39,526 nt of DNA from Deltaproteobacteria bacterium TL4 (lineage in GTDB: Bacteria; SAR324; NAC60-12), in the NCBI GenBank assembly GCA_051382335.1, contig JBBCAX010000248.1, positions 1-39,526 of the forward strand, read 5' to 3'. Made by a program: the position numbers and the translations under genes. Below, piece by piece: positions 6,999 through 29,025 of this stretch; position 1 is the stretch's first letter; every line of letters begins with the position of its first letter. A model generated the notes under the pieces. The model was not told the origin of the DNA. It saw nothing but the letters and a program-made list of their open reading frames with translations, and searched no databases.

Positions 6999-7068
6999 GT
7001 CATGGTGAACGAAGTTGAACCAGTGCCGGATGAGAGGGGCACCGTTCAACTTCGCTTAGAATGATGAC
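6999..7068. repeat. REP-like intergenic palindrome
   Basis: Perfect 11-bp arms CGAAGTTGAAC (7010-7020) / GTTCAACTTCG (7044-7054) with outer GTCAT/ATGAC. Confidence 0.6.
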
Positions 7069-12641: not shown

Positions 12642-12704
12642 GTTGCGTAGAGATCACTTTATAATAGTTTGCCCGGTTTTTTCCAAGCGCAGCTTTCTTG
12701 TGTC

Positions 12705-12769
12705 TTGCCACCAAAGCCACAAAAACATTAAAATAATATTTTTTGTGTCTTTTGTGGTTTTAGTGGCAA
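12705..12769. repeat. Intergenic palindromic repeat element
   Basis: TTGCCACCAAAGCCACAAAA ... TTTTGTGGTTTTAGTGGCAA imperfect inverted repeat. Confidence 0.55.
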
Positions 12770-12798
12770 AAATATAAACCCTGAAATAAAGGATAATT

Positions 12799-13566
12799 AT
12801 GGAAATAAAAGATAAAGTCGTTGTTGTTACTGGAGGAGCTTCAGGACTAGGCGAAGCTTGTGTCCGTCTGCTCCTGGGCGCCGGCGCAAAGGTCTCTATT
12901 TTGGATTTCAATGAAGATGCCGGGACAAAACTGGCGGAGGCCTTGGGAAGTCAGGTGATGTTCCAAAAAACAGATGTTTCTAATGATCAAAGTGTTCAAA
13001 ACAGTATCCAGGCGACGATCGCGCAATTCAAAGCGCTTCATATTGTGATAAACTGTGCCGGAATTGCACCTCCAATGAAAGTTTACAGTCAGCGTAAAGG
13101 CATCATGCCTTTTGATTACTTTAATAAAATTATCCAGGTAAACTTGATTGGAACCATGAACGTTATTCGTCATGCAACCGCTCAGATCGTCAATAATGAG
13201 CCTAACGCGGATGGAGAAAAAGGCGTGATTATTAATACGGCTTCAGTAGCCGCGTTTGACGGACAAATTGGTCAGGCCGCGTATTCTGCGTCAAAAGGTG
13301 GAGTTGTTGGAATGACATTGCCGATTGCAAGAGAGTTTGCGTCTTATGGTATTCGTGTGATGACGATTGCTCCGGGTTTGTTTCATACGCCTATGATGGC
13401 CAGCCTGTCCCAGGAAGTTCAGGACTCTCTGGCCAGTTCAGTTCCTTTCCCAAAGCGGTTAGGCAAGCCCGACGAGTACGCTCAACTGGCGCAACACATC
13501 ATTCAAAATCCGATGCTTAATGGAGAAACTATTCGCTTGGATGGTTCGATCAGACTGGAAATGTAA
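12799..13566 (+). CDS. SDR-family 3-hydroxyacyl-CoA dehydrogenase (HSD10 / type II HADH-like)
   Basis: TGGASGLG, NCAGIA, INTASVAAFDGQIGQAAYSASKGG and NPMLNGETIRLDG motifs. Confidence 0.9.
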   Translation: MEIKDKVVVVTGGASGLGEACVRLLLGAGAKVSILDFNEDAGTKLAEALGSQVMFQKTDVSNDQSVQNSIQATIAQFKALHIVINCAGIAPPMKVYSQRKGIMPFDYFNKIIQVNLIGTMNVIRHATAQIVNNEPNADGEKGVIINTASVAAFDGQIGQAAYSASKGGVVGMTLPIAREFASYGIRVMTIAPGLFHTPMMASLSQEVQDSLASSVPFPKRLGKPDEYAQLAQHIIQNPMLNGETIRLDGSIRLEM

Positions 13567-13700
13567 AGACTGAAATTTTCGGAGACTTCGTCTTGTGCCT
13601 TGGTGCGTTTAAACTGAAGTAAACGCACCTGAATCAAAGCTTCACTTTCACCGAAATTGTATCGATTTGATCTTTTGAGAAAGTTGGTAGAGACGGGCTG

Positions 13701-13871
13701 TTACTTTTTGTTTTTCACATTATCAACGTATTTGAGCAGAGGCTGATAATACAAACCATCCGCCCCTGAATGGGTCATACTTCCGATAGGTTCCCATCCT
13801 TTTCGTATCAGACGGTTTACGGTTTCCGTTAATTCCTTGATGTCCAATGCAACAGCAATACGATATTTCAT
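13701..13871 (-). CDS. Small DUF1737-like protein (56 aa)
   Basis: MKYRIAVALDIKELTETVNRLIRKGWEPIGSM...YYQPLLK fits the DUF1737 pattern. A GAGGAG ribosome-binding site precedes the ATG at 13871, so the ORF-track start at 14006 is probably too long. Confidence 0.7.
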   Translation of the reverse strand: MKYRIAVALDIKELTETVNRLIRKGWEPIGSMTHSGADGLYYQPLLKYVDNVKNKK

Positions 13872-13929
13872 GACAAGCTCCTCGATTTTTTTGAGTGGAA
13901 TAGTAAAGTGTGGTACGTCGATAAGGCTG

Positions 13930-13958: not shown

Positions 13959-13964
13959 CTTAAT

Positions 13965-14287
13965 CTTCGGCTCCATCCGGAGGTTTGCCCCGTTAACTAC
14001 AACCAAACGGAGCCGAAGCGCGCCAAGAACACTAATTCTGAAGAAGCACCGAGAACTTCTGTATGTGAGACTTCTTTGACACTCTTTTCTTCGGTCCCAT
14101 TCGGAAGTTTGCCCCGTTGACTACAACCGAACGGAACCGAAGCGCGCCAAGAACACTAATTCTGAAGAAGCACCGAAAGCTTCTGTATGTGAGATTTCTT
14201 TGGTATCCATTTCTTCGGATCCATTCGGAGGTTTGCCCCGTTAACTACAACCGAACGAAGCCGAAGCGCGCCAAGAACATTAATCTG
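13965..14287 (-). repeat. 124-bp tandem repeat (~2.6 copies) with conserved hairpins; candidate structured ncRNA array
   Basis: Units start at 13965, 14089 and 14213. Each has a 54-nt stem-loop CTTCGG...CCGAAG, and the two full units carry a second hairpin AGAAGC-N7-(G/A)CTTCT. The period is not a multiple of 3. Confidence 0.9.
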
Positions 14288-14542
14288 AAAGATAGGAAGT
14301 GAGGTATTTATACGGGAAACCTGTTCTATTTGCCATTCGTAATATTACTTACGTACTTTTACCAATGGACATTTGTGGCTGAATTCACTACCATCTCAAC
14401 ATGGGTTTCTGCTTTTATGGGGAGTGATACACCCCCACCTGTTGACCTCCTTATCTATGAAAGCTTAGACCCATTCCCCCCTTCAATCCTCGCCAAACAA
14501 TTGAAAATCGAAGTCGTTCAGGAACCCACTGTTAGATAAAAT

Positions 14543-15409
14543 CTAGGAGAGACTGTCTGGGAGAGGCGGATACATTTCTTGGGTCATTGTATGCAGTTTT
14601 TTGGAGAGTTCCCTAATAATGAGGCGTAACAATCGTTCTCGTAATTCATCAGAAAAAAGTTGAATCGCATAATACGGCAGCATAAAGACTACTGATTTAC
14701 CATGACTGATGACTCGTGTTGAGGAATGGCTTCGTGTCAGCAATGAGGTTTCTCCTAATAAAGAACACGCCCCAAGTTCGGTGATCAGTTCTGGTTCAGA
14801 ATGAGGTTGGACGAGATAAACACCAACTTTTCCTTGAAGCAAAATTCCCAGTTTGTCAATGGTTCCTTTTTCTTGAATTAGAACGTCATCATGCTCAAAT
14901 TTCCTGAGATACCCCAACGATAAAAATGTTTGTATTTCATTCAGGTTAAAGTTTTTAAAGAAATCTGTTTTTACAATACGTTCAATGGTTTCTTTTGAAA
15001 AATTGATTTCTATGCCCAGCGTTGTTTTAACCTTTTCAAATAAGGTATTTCCCTCAAGCGGATGAATCAGCACATGTTGGATTCCATACTCCTTGTAGAG
15101 TTTGAGTTTGGCAAAAGTAACTTCAGTGGTGAGTAAAATGAGCGGAATTTTGTGCCATTGTTTGGAATTGCTCCAGAATTGGACCAAGGCGTTGAATTTG
15201 AGATCTTGGAATTCATCGGTAATCAGTAAATCATAGTTAGGCTTATTTTTGAGATGGGTTACCCCCTTTTGAGGATTGATGGCCTGATGGAGCTTACATT
15301 TTCTCAAGGCGGATAAGGCCTTTTTTATAAAAATCCACGTGTCTTGATCTTTTGTGACAACGAGAATGGCTTGAGGATCATTTTGGTTCATGATTGACCT
15401 TTTCATCAT
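14543..15409 (-). CDS. Atypical receiver domain plus cyclic-nucleotide-binding domain protein
   Basis: N-terminal REC-like segment (YDLLITD, IPLILLT). C-terminal cNMP domain (LIQEKG..DKLGILLQGKVGV, LLGETSLL). Confidence 0.7.
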   Translation of the reverse strand: MMKRSIMNQNDPQAILVVTKDQDTWIFIKKALSALRKCKLHQAINPQKGVTHLKNKPNYDLLITDEFQDLKFNALVQFWSNSKQWHKIPLILLTTEVTFAKLKLYKEYGIQHVLIHPLEGNTLFEKVKTTLGIEINFSKETIERIVKTDFFKNFNLNEIQTFLSLGYLRKFEHDDVLIQEKGTIDKLGILLQGKVGVYLVQPHSEPELITELGACSLLGETSLLTRSHSSTRVISHGKSVVFMLPYYAIQLFSDELRERLLRLIIRELSKKLHTMTQEMYPPLPDSLS

Positions 15410-19183: not shown

Positions 19184-22117
19184 ATGTTTTTAAATCGTAT
19201 TTCAATTAAACATAAGCTCCTGATCATGCTGACGTTACCTGTCATCGGGGTGCTGTTCTTTTCTATGGAGGGAATCTCCAGGAAATATGAAATCCGGCGT
19301 GATATTGAAACGTTAAAAGACAAAACCACGTATATTGAGAAAGTTAGTGATTTGATTCAGGAAATCCATGCTGAAAGAATTTTTGCCTCAGGGTTCCTCG
19401 GGAGTCAGGGTCAGTTTTTCGAAAAGAATTTCGTTTCTCAACAAGCTAACACGGATCGTGCACTGCAGGATTTACTTGAATTCACAGCCTCGTTACCGCC
19501 TCTTCCGATCCCTCAAAAATTCTCCTTATTTTCCAATGTGATGCGAATGTTAAAAGAAATTCAAAAACATCGAAGTGCTCTTTTGCGGTTTCAAGGTTCT
19601 TTTGACGAAATAGTTGCGTTTTATACTCGATTGAATCAGCTTTTAATAGAAAATATTGCGCCTTCAGCCAGTGATCTTAATTTTCCTGAACTTAAAGAAA
19701 ACAGGACAGCTTTGACAAGCTTCTTAATCATGCAGGAACTTCATGGCGAGACAGCGGCGATACTCAGTTATGCTTATGCCTTGGGGCGAATGGATGAACA
19801 CCCTTATCGTCAATTGGAAGCGCTATTGTTGAAGCAAGAAGCGCAGCGTGAGATCTTCTTTTCCTTGTTTGCGGAAGGGCACTCTTATCAAGAGGAACTC
19901 CAACAAAAACCTTTCATGAAAGAATTTGATCGGATGCAAATGCTTGCGCTGCAAAATGTGGCGCCAAAGCCTTTGGAAATCGATCCTGAAGCTTGGTACC
20001 TGCAAGAAAAACAAGTACGTAATTTTTTTCAAGTCATTGAAACTCACTTGCTTGATGACCGAAAAGCTCAGATTGAGCACTTGCGGGAAAACAGTTTGAA
20101 TGATTATCTTAAGTACTTGGGGATCTTTGTAATTGGTGGAATCTGTACTTTATTCGTTGGCATGTTGATCATTAACAACATTAAACAACGTATTCTTTTA
20201 ATGTTTCATGCTTTAAAAGAAATCTCCGAAGGAAATTTTGATCCGCAAACCTCTTCGGCTCTTCAACACTGGAACAATCAGGATGAGTTATCTGTTTTAT
20301 CTGAAACGATCACCGAGATGTCCAATAAGCTGGCGGCCCTTTTTTCAGAATCAAAAGGGGTTACAGTACAGCTATTCGAGGCTAATCTCAAATTGGAGAA
20401 AGCGGTTTCACGACACAAAATAACAGAGCAGGAGTTAAGAGAGGGGCAGCGTACCATCATGACCTTGATGGGCAATTTGAATGGCTTGGTTTATCGTTGT
20501 CGTAATGAAGCCGAATGGACTATGAGGTTTGTCAGTGAAGGGTGCTTTAAATTAACAGGTTATCATCCTTCGCAACTGATTGAAAACTTCGCTGTTTCTT
20601 TTGGGAGCTTGATTCATAACGACGACCAGGCTTTTATTTGGAGCGAAGTCCAGAAGGCACTTGAGACAAAAAAACATTTTCAATGCATTTATCGTATTGT
20701 CACCGCATCAGGAGGGATGAAGTGGGTTTGGAATCAAGGTTGTGGTGTTTTTGATACCCAGGGAAAACTTCTGTGTATTGAAGGCTTTATCACAGATATT
20801 TCTGAATTAAAGAACGCAGAAGAAGCCATCCAGCGTTCTTATCGTGAACTGGAACGAATCTCGAAAACTTTCCAGTTGTTTGTGCCTAGACAATTTTTAC
20901 ATCGTATTCAGAATTCAGAGGACCAGATCATACCAGGCGAAGTGCAAGAGGAGAAACTCACTATTTTGTTTTCAGATATTCGTTCTTACACGATGCTCTG
21001 TGAGCAAATGAGTTCTAAGGACATGGTTGAGTTCTTAAATACTTACCTCCATTTGATGGAACCTTGTATCACCGCAAATCACGGTTTTATTGATAAGTTT
21101 ATTGGTGATGCGATCATGGCGCTGTTTGAGTTGGAGAGTTCTTCCGTTCAAGCGGTACAAGCCGCGGTCGATATGCAACAGGCCATCAATACTTACAATG
21201 AAACCCGGGATGGAACGCATCGGCCCTTTATTAAAGTGGGAATGGGAATTAATACAGGGACGGTAATGATTGGAGCCTTAGGTTCTGCCAATCGTTTGGA
21301 ATCAACTGTTATCGGCGATCATGTCAACCTCACTTCTCGACTGGAAGGCTTGACGAAAAAATACAAAGTCCGGATTCTTATTTCACAATATACTTACGAT
21401 GCCTTACCTGAGGATCACTTTTTAATTCGTGAAATTGATACGGTCAAAGTGCATGGCAAATCGAACGCAACCAGGATTTATGAAGTTTATGATGCGGATA
21501 GAGAAGACATTCGTGAGAAAAAAGAACAGACCAAGTCTATGTTTTCAAAGGGGATACAAACCTACAAAGTGGGAAAATTCCAGGAGGCTCTCGCGTATTT
21601 TCTAAAAGTATTGGATGTTCATTCAAGTGACCGAGTTGCGTTGGAGTATGTAAAACGCTGTCATTATTACAGCAAATATCCTCCCTCCTTGGAAGAATGG
21701 GGGGGCGTGACTCCTGAAAATTATCAATTCATCGATCAGAGCATCAGACGCCATTGGCCAAGGCATGTCTTAAATACTCCTGCCAATTTATTTAAGACAC
21801 ACTCCGACCTCCAACTGGCTGGAATCATACGCAACATTTCAGAAGGAGGCATTCAGTTGGATACTTCCCATAATCTTCAATTAGGGGATACGGTTAATGT
21901 TGAGATCTTCCTGCCGCAGAAAACCCTGGACGATTTTTTGGATCAGAAACCCCATAAAGTTTGGTGTCAAGTGGTTTGGCAAATTCCAAACGATGTTTTT
22001 AATCAGCGCCCCTATTGGGAAACAGGTTTGGAATTTGTGGTGATTTCAGATGATGATGAACAAAGGTTAAAGCAAATTTTGGGACCCATTAAAGTGAAGA
22101 CACCTGAGCTCACCTAG
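19184..22117 (+). CDS. Membrane class III adenylate cyclase with NIT-like sensor, HAMP, PAS and C-terminal PilZ domain
   Basis: Two TM segments flank a NIT-like region (IQEIHAERIFASGFLGSQG). HAMP (DELSVL) and PAS follow. The cyclase has FSDIRSYT, DKFIGDAIMA and TVIGDHVNLTSRLE. PilZ motifs RHWPR and NISEGG are present. Confidence 0.85.
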   Translation: MFLNRISIKHKLLIMLTLPVIGVLFFSMEGISRKYEIRRDIETLKDKTTYIEKVSDLIQEIHAERIFASGFLGSQGQFFEKNFVSQQANTDRALQDLLEFTASLPPLPIPQKFSLFSNVMRMLKEIQKHRSALLRFQGSFDEIVAFYTRLNQLLIENIAPSASDLNFPELKENRTALTSFLIMQELHGETAAILSYAYALGRMDEHPYRQLEALLLKQEAQREIFFSLFAEGHSYQEELQQKPFMKEFDRMQMLALQNVAPKPLEIDPEAWYLQEKQVRNFFQVIETHLLDDRKAQIEHLRENSLNDYLKYLGIFVIGGICTLFVGMLIINNIKQRILLMFHALKEISEGNFDPQTSSALQHWNNQDELSVLSETITEMSNKLAALFSESKGVTVQLFEANLKLEKAVSRHKITEQELREGQRTIMTLMGNLNGLVYRCRNEAEWTMRFVSEGCFKLTGYHPSQLIENFAVSFGSLIHNDDQAFIWSEVQKALETKKHFQCIYRIVTASGGMKWVWNQGCGVFDTQGKLLCIEGFITDISELKNAEEAIQRSYRELERISKTFQLFVPRQFLHRIQNSEDQIIPGEVQEEKLTILFSDIRSYTMLCEQMSSKDMVEFLNTYLHLMEPCITANHGFIDKFIGDAIMALFELESSSVQAVQAAVDMQQAINTYNETRDGTHRPFIKVGMGINTGTVMIGALGSANRLESTVIGDHVNLTSRLEGLTKKYKVRILISQYTYDALPEDHFLIREIDTVKVHGKSNATRIYEVYDADREDIREKKEQTKSMFSKGIQTYKVGKFQEALAYFLKVLDVHSSDRVALEYVKRCHYYSKYPPSLEEWGGVTPENYQFIDQSIRRHWPRHVLNTPANLFKTHSDLQLAGIIRNISEGGIQLDTSHNLQLGDTVNVEIFLPQKTLDDFLDQKPHKVWCQVVWQIPNDVFNQRPYWETGLEFVVISDDDEQRLKQILGPIKVKTPELT

Positions 22118-26978: not shown

Positions 26979-27623
26979 TTACTTGATATAATATTCATTT
27001 AACTCTGGAAGTAATCCAACATCTCTTGCAAACACATCTAGTCGGTTACCAGTCACCTCTCCGAGGTGATTGACAGTAATATCTTTGGCTTTTTCATAGT
27101 CTATTGAAACATTTTTCAGAAGATGTTTTACGCCAATATCATCTTTAGGTTCTCCTGAAACCATTTTCATAGCAATAAGGTATTCGACAGGTACCACAGG
27201 CATCTGAATTTCATCGTCGATTTCCACATTTTGTGTAGAGGCTTCCAGTGCTTCTAAAAATAGTTGTTCTACCTGGATATGTCTATCTATGAAATCAATA
27301 TAAATTTCATTTTCTCTGATACCAAGTCCTCCAATATTAAGATGCATATAATGTAAATTGCTTTCCTTAATGGCTTGCTCAATAGATTCAATATTTTTAT
27401 AGGGAACAGCAATATCAATATCTTTAGTGAATTGGTGGATCGTCTCATCTTCAATATGAACCCACATTGCAACACCACCAATTAGTGCGTATTTTTCTAC
27501 ATTAGCTTTTTTTAGGATTTCAATTGCTTTTTTTGCTGAAATATTGGGATTGAAAGAAACTAATCGCTTTTTTATGGTTTTTGAGTGTTTCTTTATTTTT
27601 GGATTGTATCGTTCGTTTTCCAT
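26979..27623 (-). CDS. Nucleotidyltransferase (AbiEii/DUF6036-like), cassette-borne
   Basis: YALIGGVAM...FTKDIDIAV motif and EYLIAMKMVSGEPKD. Visibly AT-rich relative to flanking genes. Confidence 0.7.
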   Translation of the reverse strand: MENERYNPKIKKHSKTIKKRLVSFNPNISAKKAIEILKKANVEKYALIGGVAMWVHIEDETIHQFTKDIDIAVPYKNIESIEQAIKESNLHYMHLNIGGLGIRENEIYIDFIDRHIQVEQLFLEALEASTQNVEIDDEIQMPVVPVEYLIAMKMVSGEPKDDIGVKHLLKNVSIDYEKAKDITVNHLGEVTGNRLDVFARDVGLLPELNEYYIK

Positions 27624-27642
27624 AGAATGTCTGTAAAAATGT

Positions 27643-28065
27643 TTATCCTGTGAGGTTGTTGTAGTAAAAAGTATCCGCTAGAAGCTTTCCATTCCAACTA
27701 AGCAAACACCTAGCCGATGTATTCATTATCTGTGTTGCCCTTAATTTATCGGGGTCAAGCATCTCATCATAATCACTGCTTTGACGCTCATCAAACGCAT
27801 GGTGAATAAAACGGGATAATTCTTTAGGAAATTCACCTGTTTTGACAAATTCCCTGTCAAAGAGACTGATCACACCACTATGTTTGGAACTGCCTAACCC
27901 CTTGGTCGCCAATAATGCGGATACCGCATAAAACATCGCGTAATAAGAACGATTGATACTTCCTCGAAATGCTGATTTTTCCAGCAAAATATGAGCTTCT
28001 CGCAATGTGTCTCGTGCCTGAGAAAGTCGATGTTGTATCAATAAACTGAGTTGGTCGTCATTCAC
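27643..28065 (-). CDS. HEPN-domain protein; C-terminus possibly replaced
   Basis: NRSYYAMFYA, KHSGVISLFDREFVKTG and RQSSDY motifs. GTGA overlap with the upstream MNT gene. Confidence 0.85.
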   Translation of the reverse strand: MNDDQLSLLIQHRLSQARDTLREAHILLEKSAFRGSINRSYYAMFYAVSALLATKGLGSSKHSGVISLFDREFVKTGEFPKELSRFIHHAFDERQSSDYDEMLDPDKLRATQIMNTSARCLLSWNGKLLADTFYYNNLTG

Positions 28066-28385
28066 ACCTCAACTCCTTCCTTTTCTATTTGCGCAATCAG
28101 CGGATTGGCTCCTTGCGCTCCTTGTTGTATTTCCGCTACAGTAGTCACGAAGGTTCCAATAACACGATCATTTTCAAACCCTACTTCCCACGCTAAATCT
28201 GATATTTGATAACGAAGAGTGTTGTTCATACTTTCGGTTTTGACAAAAATATCCAGATCCGAGTCTTCTGAAAAATCCCCTCTTGCTCTGGAACCAAATA
28301 CTTTGAGTTCAAAAACTGGGATGATCTGTTTCAATCGGTCACGAAACATCCTGGCGATTTGTCGATCTTTGTCTAATAGTTTCAT
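28062..28385 (-). CDS. Minimal nucleotidyltransferase (MNT) partner of HEPN
   Basis: FGSRARGDFSEDSDLDI (GS-x10-DxD) and C-terminal IEKEGVEV. ATG at 28385 is preferred over GTG at 28421, which overlaps the attC core remnant. Confidence 0.88.
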   Translation of the reverse strand: MKLLDKDRQIARMFRDRLKQIIPVFELKVFGSRARGDFSEDSDLDIFVKTESMNNTLRYQISDLAWEVGFENDRVIGTFVTTVAEIQQGAQGANPLIAQIEKEGVEV

Positions 28386-28493
28386 TTTCTCTATAGCATT
28401 AATGTTAATGATGAGCCTCACTCCAACGCTGGGATGATGAAAACAAGGGTCAACTAGCGTTCTTAAATTGTTTCTGTGTTACTCATTGGATTT

Positions 28494-28554
28494 CGTGAAT
28501 CGTGCTCGTGAACGAATTGAAAGGAATCGAGCACGTTTACGAGCACAATTCACG
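28494..28554. repeat. Palindromic repeat element inside the cassette array
   Basis: CGTGAATCGTGCTCGTGAACG / CGTTTACGAGCACAATTCACG, 21-bp arms with 2 mismatches. Confidence 0.7.
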
Positions 28555-28733: not shown

Positions 28734-29025
28734 ATGCCCATGGGCGTGATCTGAGGGGGTGAAAGTCCCCGGAAAGCCACTGGCTTTCAATGCTATGGAA
28801 CCGATCATGCAGCACTGGCGGGAAACCAGCCAGCAAACAGCGAACAAACCGTGTTCCTAAGGTAAGGAGTACCATGAACTATTAGCGAAAGGCAAGGGCG
28901 AAATCGCGAGAATCACTCAGCGTCTCATGGGGCAACTCATGAGGTGACTGGACAGAAGTTAGCCGAAGCCATAGGTGCCAAACGCCTGTCGTAATGGGCT
29001 GGACAGGGTGAAGGGCCGAACGTAG
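28734..29025 (+). mobile_element. Truncated class C (IIC-attC type) group II intron 5' fragment with no RT ORF
   Basis: TGCCCATGGGCGTGATCTGAGGGGGTGAAAGTCCCC (5' end/DI), AAGGCAAGGG, a GCAA-looped DII-like hairpin, and CAGAAGTTAGCCGAAGCCATAG...GAAGGGCCGAAC (DIII). It is oriented opposite to the cassettes. Boundaries are approximate. Confidence 0.8.

What the first reader, a model, noticed from the sequence alone, without database searches (positions are those of the whole stretch)
13965..14287. Unannotated 124-bp tandem array of covarying hairpins: candidate novel structured ncRNA (or ssDNA) array
Seen in sequence: three units start exactly 124 bp apart (13965, 14089, 14213; the third is partial). 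Each has a 16-bp stem around a nearly invariant 22-nt interior, reading TTGTAGTYAACGGGGCAAACYT on the minus strand. One stem position is C-G in copy 1 and T-A in copy 2, a compensatory change. Seven of the eight non-Watson-Crick stem positions across the copies are C/A on the plus strand, which are G-U wobbles on the minus strand. The second hairpin (AGAAGC-N7-GCTTCT) also varies by a change that gives G-U only on the minus strand. The period is not a multiple of 3 and no start codon is conserved. Inference: selection acts on a minus-strand fold. I do not recognise it as a riboswitch, ribozyme, tRNA or CRISPR repeat. It could be a processed multimeric RNA, a protein sponge, an RNA antitoxin-like array, or a folded-ssDNA recombination substrate.
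Basis: partly seen in the sequence, partly recalled or inferred. Interest (0 to 1): 0.85.

Follow-up and report, generated by a model that had tools for sequence, protein, structure and literature searches.

The report
Tandem array of worn REP-like hairpins
Three head-to-tail copies of a strong hairpin sit between two genes at a single spot in one bacterial genome; they are likely a worn-down, locally duplicated relative of the palindromic repeats (REPs) that fill this genome, rather than a new regulatory RNA.

Summary
The array is real: 2.6 copies of 124 bp, 88% alike, each with a 16-bp stem that folds best on the minus strand. The case for a new RNA is weaker than claimed. The seven G-U cells are five distinct positions (p=0.06), the interior is not significantly better conserved than the stem (p=0.45), and an ATG is conserved. 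There is no Rfam match, no second locus in the genome and no homolog in anything searched. The genome holds 606 similar intergenic hairpins, many in REP-doublet families. The array's arms lie closest to one dispersed family (7 of 32 mismatches; 5 of 2000 permutations as close). That family shows the same one-strand wobble skew when counted the same way. The arm consensus is 15/16 identical to a CGTC-tagged REP core in other bacteria. However, tag, monomer stem, loop and flanks do not match, so membership is not shown. Best reading (0.5): a decayed REP-doublet cluster amplified in place, at most a passive RNA barrier upstream of the promoter of a small DUF1737-like gene. An orphan structured RNA remains possible (0.2). 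Earlier scan notes describe REP doublets elsewhere in this genome; none returned by my four look-ups covers this unit.

The parts
13964..14289 (.). Tandem array, 124-bp period, 2.6 copies, 88% matches; single locus in the assembly
13965..14018 (-). Hairpin copy 1: 16-bp stem, 22-nt interior, 3 G-U pairs, -28.5 kcal/mol as RNA; arms REP-core-like
14089..14142 (-). Hairpin copy 2: 2 G-U pairs, U-A at pair 7, -30.7 kcal/mol
14213..14266 (-). Hairpin copy 3: 2 G-U pairs, one C.U mismatch, -21.4 kcal/mol; closest to family F arms (7-8 of 32 mismatches)
14042..14060 (-). Second, 6-bp hairpin in the linker between copies 2 and 1; linker as a whole folds no better than shuffles (z -1.0)
14166..14184 (-). 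Second, 6-bp hairpin in the linker between copies 3 and 2 (linker z -0.3)
14156..14224 (-). 22-codon frame from the ATG in the 3' arm of copy 3; probably not a gene
14032..14100 (-). Matching 22-codon frame from copy 2; 5 of the 6 codons that differ from copy 3 change the residue
13930..13958 (-). Sigma70-type promoter-like site TTGACA-17-TATAAG (11 of 12), starting 6 bp after hairpin copy 1; predicted only
   Evidence: not listed by the scan, which requires T at the last position
13701..13871 (-). 56-aa DUF1737-like ORF with GAGGAG ribosome-binding site at 13878-13883
   Evidence: Pfam E=0.001, below cut-off; Atlas 0.91, DUF1737 clusters; 15 relatives at 33-48%
14543..15409 (-). Upstream gene with a cyclic-nucleotide-binding domain; its read-through would carry the array on the minus strand
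13602..13629 (.). Perfect 10-bp inverted repeat between the convergent SDR gene (12799-13566, +) and the DUF1737-like ORF; likely their shared 3' hairpin

Best explanation
The array is likely a decayed REP doublet (two inverted copies of a palindromic-repeat core forming one long hairpin) that was duplicated in place twice with its flanks. Shown: three 54-nt hairpins at a 124-bp period, a single locus, arms closest to a dispersed REP-doublet family of the same genome, and many other tandem arrays in this genome built from such repeats. Inferred: an old doublet landed between the cNMP-domain gene and the DUF1737-like gene, lost its tag and monomer stem, was amplified by slippage or unequal recombination, and drifted to about 12% divergence. 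If it does anything, it would act as stable RNA hairpins in the 3' trailer of the upstream minus-strand gene, slowing 3'-to-5' decay or read-through ahead of the small gene's own promoter. That role is taken from the REP literature and was not tested.
For: - Background: 606 of 792 long hairpins found genome-wide are intergenic, and the largest clusters are dispersed doublet families.
- Tandem arrays: 46 of 64 non-coding, non-CRISPR tandem arrays are built from units that match 3 or more other loci.
- Nearest relatives: of 215 genomic 16-mers within 3 mismatches of an array arm, 18 have a partner arm; 6 are the array itself and 12 are one family, F.
- Significance: best two-arm distance is 7 of 32; 5 of 2000 column permutations reach 7 or less and 39 of 2000 reach 8 or less.
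- Array and F differ by three compensatory pairs in the model alignment.
- F shows the same one-strand skew (16 G-T, 2 C-A, 4 other cells), including wobbles at stem pairs 9 and 14 as in array copies 3 and 1.
- An arm variant 15/16 identical to the array consensus is one arm of a CGTC-tagged doublet in L087 and carries a TGTC tag in L088; those genomes hold 25 and 10 matches to the core pattern.
- Tandem repeats of doublets with their flanks are the commonest higher-order REPIN arrangement in P. fluorescens SBW25 (PMC3116915, passages).
- The alternative fold I built is 12-24 kcal/mol worse than the rod, so no switch is evident.
Against: - The unit has no other copy in the genome; it is 1 of 8 orphans among the 64 arrays, and its 88% identity is below the dispersed arrays' median of 97%.
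- A profile built from 21 oriented F copies does not hit the array even with thresholds off.
- The array model scores F doublets at only 15-19 bits, below genome-wide significance.
- Loop (22 versus 16 nt) and flanks are unrelated apart from a short stretch after the stem.
- The arms lack the tag and the outer monomer stem.
- All 5 distinct wobbles favour the likely transcribed strand, whereas intergenic hairpins in general show no such preference (159 versus 146 over 243 loci), and F's skew is only 5:2 when distinct events are counted.
- The permutation null may be liberal if this core is common in stable hairpins generally.
- 22 of the 26 loci fetched with the arm pattern from other phyla were not REP-like by inspection.
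Confidence: 0.5

Rival explanations
1. An orphan structured RNA kept in three copies by selection: a minus-strand transcript whose 16-bp stems are cut (for example by RNase III) into monomers, or which presents three identical 22-nt loops to a protein.
For: All 5 distinct non-Watson-Crick stem positions that can pair, and the one change in the second hairpin, are G-U on the minus strand (6 of 6, p=0.03). One double change keeps pairing. Both interior changes are compatible with the predicted inner pairing. The minus strand is the sense strand of both neighbouring genes. The copies persisted to about 12% divergence. It has the strongest minus-strand fold per base of the 8 orphan arrays.
Against: The strand was chosen after the fact. 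Adding the linker's outer stem, counted by hand, gives 8 of 10 (p=0.11). 6 of 7 stem events keeping a pair has p=0.03-0.08 at 80-100% transitions. The interior is not better conserved than the stem. There is no U-tract terminator after any hairpin. No homolog was found in 87 other genomes of the class or in the collection scans. Rfam gave no hit on the array.
Confidence: 0.2
2. A neutral local duplication of a hairpin unrelated to REPs, brought in with the phage-type DUF1737-like gene as a small lineage-specific insert; the likeness to family F is convergence.
For: The orthologue of the upstream gene in G009 (55% identity) is followed by different genes, without the small ORF or the array. The ORF was not found with this query in 63 other genomes of the order. 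DUF1737 is a phage capsid-binding domain (bioRxiv 10.64898/2026.04.10.717836, passages). The F profile misses the array.
Against: The arm likeness exceeds the permutation null. No terminal repeats or phage genes bound the insert. DUF1737-type loci L061, L062 and L081-L084 carry no such hairpin.
Confidence: 0.2
3. A DNA-level operator array: TTCGG boxes 10 bp apart, in dyads, bind a regulator just upstream of the TTGACA-17-TATAAG promoter of the small gene.
For: The nearest arm ends 6 bp before the -35 hexamer. 4 of the 6 variable stem columns lie in the 4 nt between the boxes. The neighbourhood is rich in signalling genes.
Against: The between-box bases stay complementary, which a protein site does not need. 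TTCGG-N5-TTCGG is not enriched (16 sites versus 5-36 at other spacings), and the full dyad occurs only here apart from one loose match.
Confidence: 0.1

Closest known systems
REPINs and tandem REPIN clusters (Bertels and Rainey 2011, PMC3116915; passages read)
   Same: Inverted doublet forming one hairpin; tandem repeats of doublet plus flanks; extragenic; the host genome has 12 Y1_Tnp matches.
   Different: Single locus; copies 88% rather than nearly identical; no Y1_Tnp match on this contig; arms do not fold as monomers.
CGTC-tagged REPs (Di Nocera et al. 2013, PMC3733652; abstract, sections 6, 14, 16 and passages read; figures with the consensus sequences not seen)
   Same: Arm consensus 15/16 identical to the core of a CGTC-tagged doublet in L087; located downstream of a gene between co-oriented ORFs.
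   Different: No CGTC/TGTC tag and no 8-9-bp monomer stem; the family number cannot be assigned.
Family F of this genome: about 125-bp element with terminal inverted repeats around a 48-nt doublet
   Same: 16-bp arms in register with 22-25 of 32 identities; same polarity; same wobble positions.
   Different: Loop 16 versus 22 nt; no terminal inverted repeats in the array; the F profile does not hit it.
c-di-GMP-I riboswitch (resemblance recalled from memory: GGGCAAAC followed by a tetraloop hairpin)
   Same: A short GGGCAAAC stretch followed by a possible 3-4-bp hairpin.
   Different: No Rfam hit at E up to 10, no third helix, and the alternative fold is far less stable.

Membership tests
REP/REPIN/BIME | Inverted doublet forming a long hairpin in extragenic DNA | tested here: met
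REP/REPIN/BIME | Many dispersed copies in the genome | tested here: not met
   One locus only by blastn, nhmmer and covariance model
REP/REPIN/BIME | Arm sequence belongs to a dispersed REP family | tested here: inconclusive
   Arms closer to family F than 1995 of 2000 permutations, but the F profile gives no hit
CGTC/GTAG-tagged REP | Terminal tag and self-folding monomer stem | tested here: not met
   No tag next to any arm; the outer stem seen for F arms is absent in all six array arms
REP/REPIN/BIME | Cognate RAYT flanked by the same repeat | not tested
   12 Y1_Tnp matches in the genome, none on this contig; their flanks were not inspected, but the unit has no copy elsewhere
MITE | Terminal inverted repeats enclosing the unit | tested here: not met
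   (25 of 32 pairs shown) lists none that bounds a unit or the array
Any Rfam 15 RNA family (riboswitch, ribozyme, sRNA, antitoxin) | Covariance-model match | tested here: not met
   3 chance hits at E 1.3-7.5, none on the array
Riboswitch-like tandem leader | Two competing folds and position inside the 5' leader | tested here: not met
   The one alternative fold tested is 12-24 kcal/mol worse; a promoter-like site lies between array and gene
CRISPR array | Identical repeats with unrelated spacers | tested here: not met
   The two linkers are near copies of each other
Type III toxin-antitoxin RNA array | Short pseudoknot repeats directly upstream of an endoribonuclease toxin (definition recalled) | tested here: not met
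   124-bp unit; the next gene is a 56-aa DUF1737-like ORF
Integron attC array | RYYYAAC...GTTRRRY ends (definition recalled) | tested here: not met
   Read by eye; no such pair bounds the hairpins
Novel structured ncRNA | Significant covariation across homologs | tested here: inconclusive
   Only three paralogous copies; 154 of 500 shuffles score as high
Novel structured ncRNA | Transcription and defined ends | not testable with these tools
   No sequencing run was available to lay reads on

The most novel reading that the evidence does not exclude
A REP-derived or independent hairpin has been domesticated into a three-unit minus-strand RNA. Its stems are held by G-U-tolerant selection and display a fixed 22-nt loop, and it acts as a processed multimer or protein sponge, or controls the phage-type DUF1737-like gene through the ATG buried in each 3' arm (in frame with that gene in copy 1).
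Probability: 0.18. Interest if true: 0.65.

Novelty: new variant of a known kind. Interest (0 to 1): 0.25.

Why it matters
On the best reading it is a small example of how REP doublets decay and amplify locally until no profile recognises them. It is also a caution for this scan: counting G-U cells across paralogous copies gives a one-strand skew even in ordinary mobile repeats. If the novel case holds, it would be a step from selfish palindrome to functional RNA array, which is proposed for REPs but hard to catch.

Tried and rejected
Searches for homologs of the unit:
- blastn against relatives: 1 weak hit in 60 other genomes, on the linker only.
- Covariance model: 0 of 87 other genomes of the class and 0 of 5 further genomes.
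- Exact patterns in viral contigs gave 0, 2, 34, 0, 0 and 0 loci; GTDB genomes gave 5 and metagenomes 1. The fetched loci scored at most 21 bits against 111-119 for the real copies. These scans need exact matches, so diverged relatives would be missed.
- Phages and plasmids: only short chance matches.
- Arm pattern: 19 of 401 and 5 of 301 genomes of two other phyla matched; none of the 26 loci fetched had the array's hairpin.

Other checks:
- Upstream 256 nt: folds no better than shuffles (z -0.89) and has one 25-nt weak hit in 87 other genomes.
- Peptide coding: 5 of 6 differing codons are non-synonymous and the ATG is buried in the stem.
- Sigma54, sigma28, hammerhead, hairpin-ribozyme, glmS, 5S and tRNA-like readings were considered from recalled motifs and dropped; Rfam and ARAGORN gave nothing.
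- Sequencing runs: none was listed, which is no evidence on expression.
- Viral relatives by alignment: the DUF1737 alignment was too diverse for the locus search; the single protein gave 4 loci without the hairpin.

Paper searches: DUF1737, 5 papers; CGTC/GTAG REPs, 14 papers with 10 listed; REPIN arrays, 1; two searches for tandem RNA motifs and for a guessed clade name, 0 each. None of the listings describes this unit. Supplements and figures were not seen, and Figure 2 of PMC3733652 would bear on the family assignment.

Full report
Observation. The array is at 13964-14289: period 124 bp, 2.6 copies, 88% matches, no indels counted. Copies 1 and 2 differ at 15 of 124 sites, 14 of them transitions. 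Each unit has a 54-nt hairpin with a 16-bp stem and a 22-nt interior. Of 48 stem cells, 40 are Watson-Crick, 7 are G-U on the minus strand and 1 is a C.U mismatch. The minus strand folds better than the plus strand (z -2.94 versus -1.24). So the description is right in the main.

How strong is the sign of selection? Weaker than stated. One G-U is invariant and was counted three times, so there are 5 distinct wobble positions (two-sided p=0.06). With the second hairpin it is 6 of 6 (p=0.03). With the outer stem of the linker, where I count two further G-U and two A.C positions by hand, it is 8 of 10 (p=0.11). The single compensatory pair is broken in copy 3, and 154 of 500 shuffles reach the observed covariation score. 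The interior varies at 2 of 22 columns and the stem at 6 of 32 (p=0.45). An ATG is in fact conserved in all three 3' arms, but 5 of the 6 differing codons in the two 22-codon frames change the residue, so coding is unlikely.

Surroundings. The array lies 253 bp downstream of a minus-strand cNMP-domain gene and upstream of a 56-aa ORF on the same strand. The ORF is DUF1737-like: Pfam E=0.001 below cut-off, Atlas score 0.91, and 15 distant relatives. A bioRxiv preprint (10.64898/2026.04.10.717836, passages seen) shows DUF1737 as a phage capsid-binding domain. A TTGACA-17-TATAAG site starts 6 bp after copy 1. TTGACA-17-TATAAN occurs at 11 of 4208 TTGACA sites against 5-7 at control spacings, so this site is a likely but unproven promoter. 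It would place the array outside the small gene's leader. No U-tract follows any hairpin. In G009 the orthologue of the upstream gene is followed by other genes, so the array and ORF look lineage-specific.

Homologs. None was found. The unit occurs once in the genome and in 0 of 87 other genomes of the class. Exact-pattern scans of viral, genome and metagenome collections and blastn of phages and plasmids gave only chance matches. Rfam has no match on the array at E up to 10. No genome of the same genus was available, so this absence says little about close relatives.

The genomic background. This genome is full of such hairpins: 606 of 792 long stems found are intergenic by a crude ORF test, and the largest clusters are dispersed doublet families. 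Of 64 non-coding, non-CRISPR tandem arrays with periods of 40-350 bp (overlaps merged; CRISPR and mostly coding rows dropped), 46 are built from dispersed repeats and 8, this one included, are orphans. One dispersed family, F, is an element of about 125 bp with terminal inverted repeats around a 48-nt doublet. It matches a strict pattern at 16 loci here and at 1 locus in 87 other genomes. F is the only hairpin family whose arms come within 3 mismatches of an array arm (12 of the 18 paired hits, the other 6 being the array). The best two-arm distance is 7 of 32, reached by 5 of 2000 permutations; 8, the distance to typical copies, is reached by 39 of 2000. In other phyla a variant 15/16 identical to the array's arm consensus is one arm of a CGTC-tagged doublet (L087) and carries a TGTC tag in L088. 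4 of the 26 loci fetched looked REP-like by inspection and 22 did not.

Against REP descent. An F profile does not hit the array. The array model gives F only 15-19 bits. Loop and flanks are unrelated, and the tag and monomer stem are missing. The array is single-locus and more diverged than typical REP arrays here (88% versus a median of 97%). Intergenic hairpins overall show no wobble preference for the transcribed strand (159 versus 146), whereas all of this array's stem wobbles favour it. The array therefore fails the membership test for an intact REP or REPIN; the claim is descent and likeness of behaviour.

Mechanism. Shown: the repeat, the fold, the single locus and the arm likeness. 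Inferred: insertion of a doublet, loss of its tag, two local duplications with flanks, and drift. Tandem doublets with flanks are described as the commonest higher-order REPIN form (PMC3116915, passages). REPs downstream of genes are thought to act in RNA stability or termination (PMC3733652, abstract, sections 6, 14, 16 and passages). A passive barrier in the upstream gene's trailer is the most likely effect, if any. A switch is unlikely, since the one alternative fold I built is 12-24 kcal/mol worse.

Verdict. Real feature; best read as an orphan, decayed REP-like doublet cluster (0.5). Rivals: selected structured RNA (0.2), neutral duplication unrelated to REPs (0.2), DNA operator array (0.1). 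Interest 0.25. The REP lead came; the scan's earlier notes on this genome, seen afterwards, agree that it is rich in REP doublets, and none returned covers this unit.

Noticed in passing
window 13602-13629; G000:C367:35991-36021: Perfect inverted repeat between the convergent SDR and DUF1737-like genes, with a looser copy on another contig; 11-6-11 geometry with arms like a XerC site (likeness recalled from memory).
   Followed up: partly
window 12690-12770: Hairpin with internally repeated purine-rich and pyrimidine-rich arms between the mutase and SDR genes; similar hairpins recur in the genome.
   Followed up: no
window 7006-7058: Hairpin whose arms resemble family F cores in the opposite polarity.
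   Followed up: no
window 28921-29016: Group II intron D1-D4 fragment (RF01998, 49.5 bits), near a further hairpin at 28494-28554.
   Followed up: no
window 26979-28421: Nucleotidyltransferase plus HEPN gene pair followed by a weak AbiEii-like gene, a likely toxin-antitoxin or defence block.
   Followed up: no
window 19184-22117: NIT-PAS-adenylate/guanylate cyclase-PilZ fusion, an unusual mix of a cyclase with a c-di-GMP sensor domain.
   Followed up: no
window 14385-14540, minus strand: AAGGAGGT followed by GTG and a 7-codon frame inside a hairpin; the region folds at z -1.64, not significant.
   Followed up: partly
G000:C84:316-837: Another strongly folding, nearly orphan non-coding array: 138 bp x 3.8, 97% alike, one other locus.
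   Followed up: no
G000:C49:376-501 and about 20 other places: Family F: about 125-bp element with 23-bp terminal inverted repeats around a REP doublet; the doublet core recurs in a Pseudanabaena plasmid (L111) and in other phyla.
   Followed up: partly
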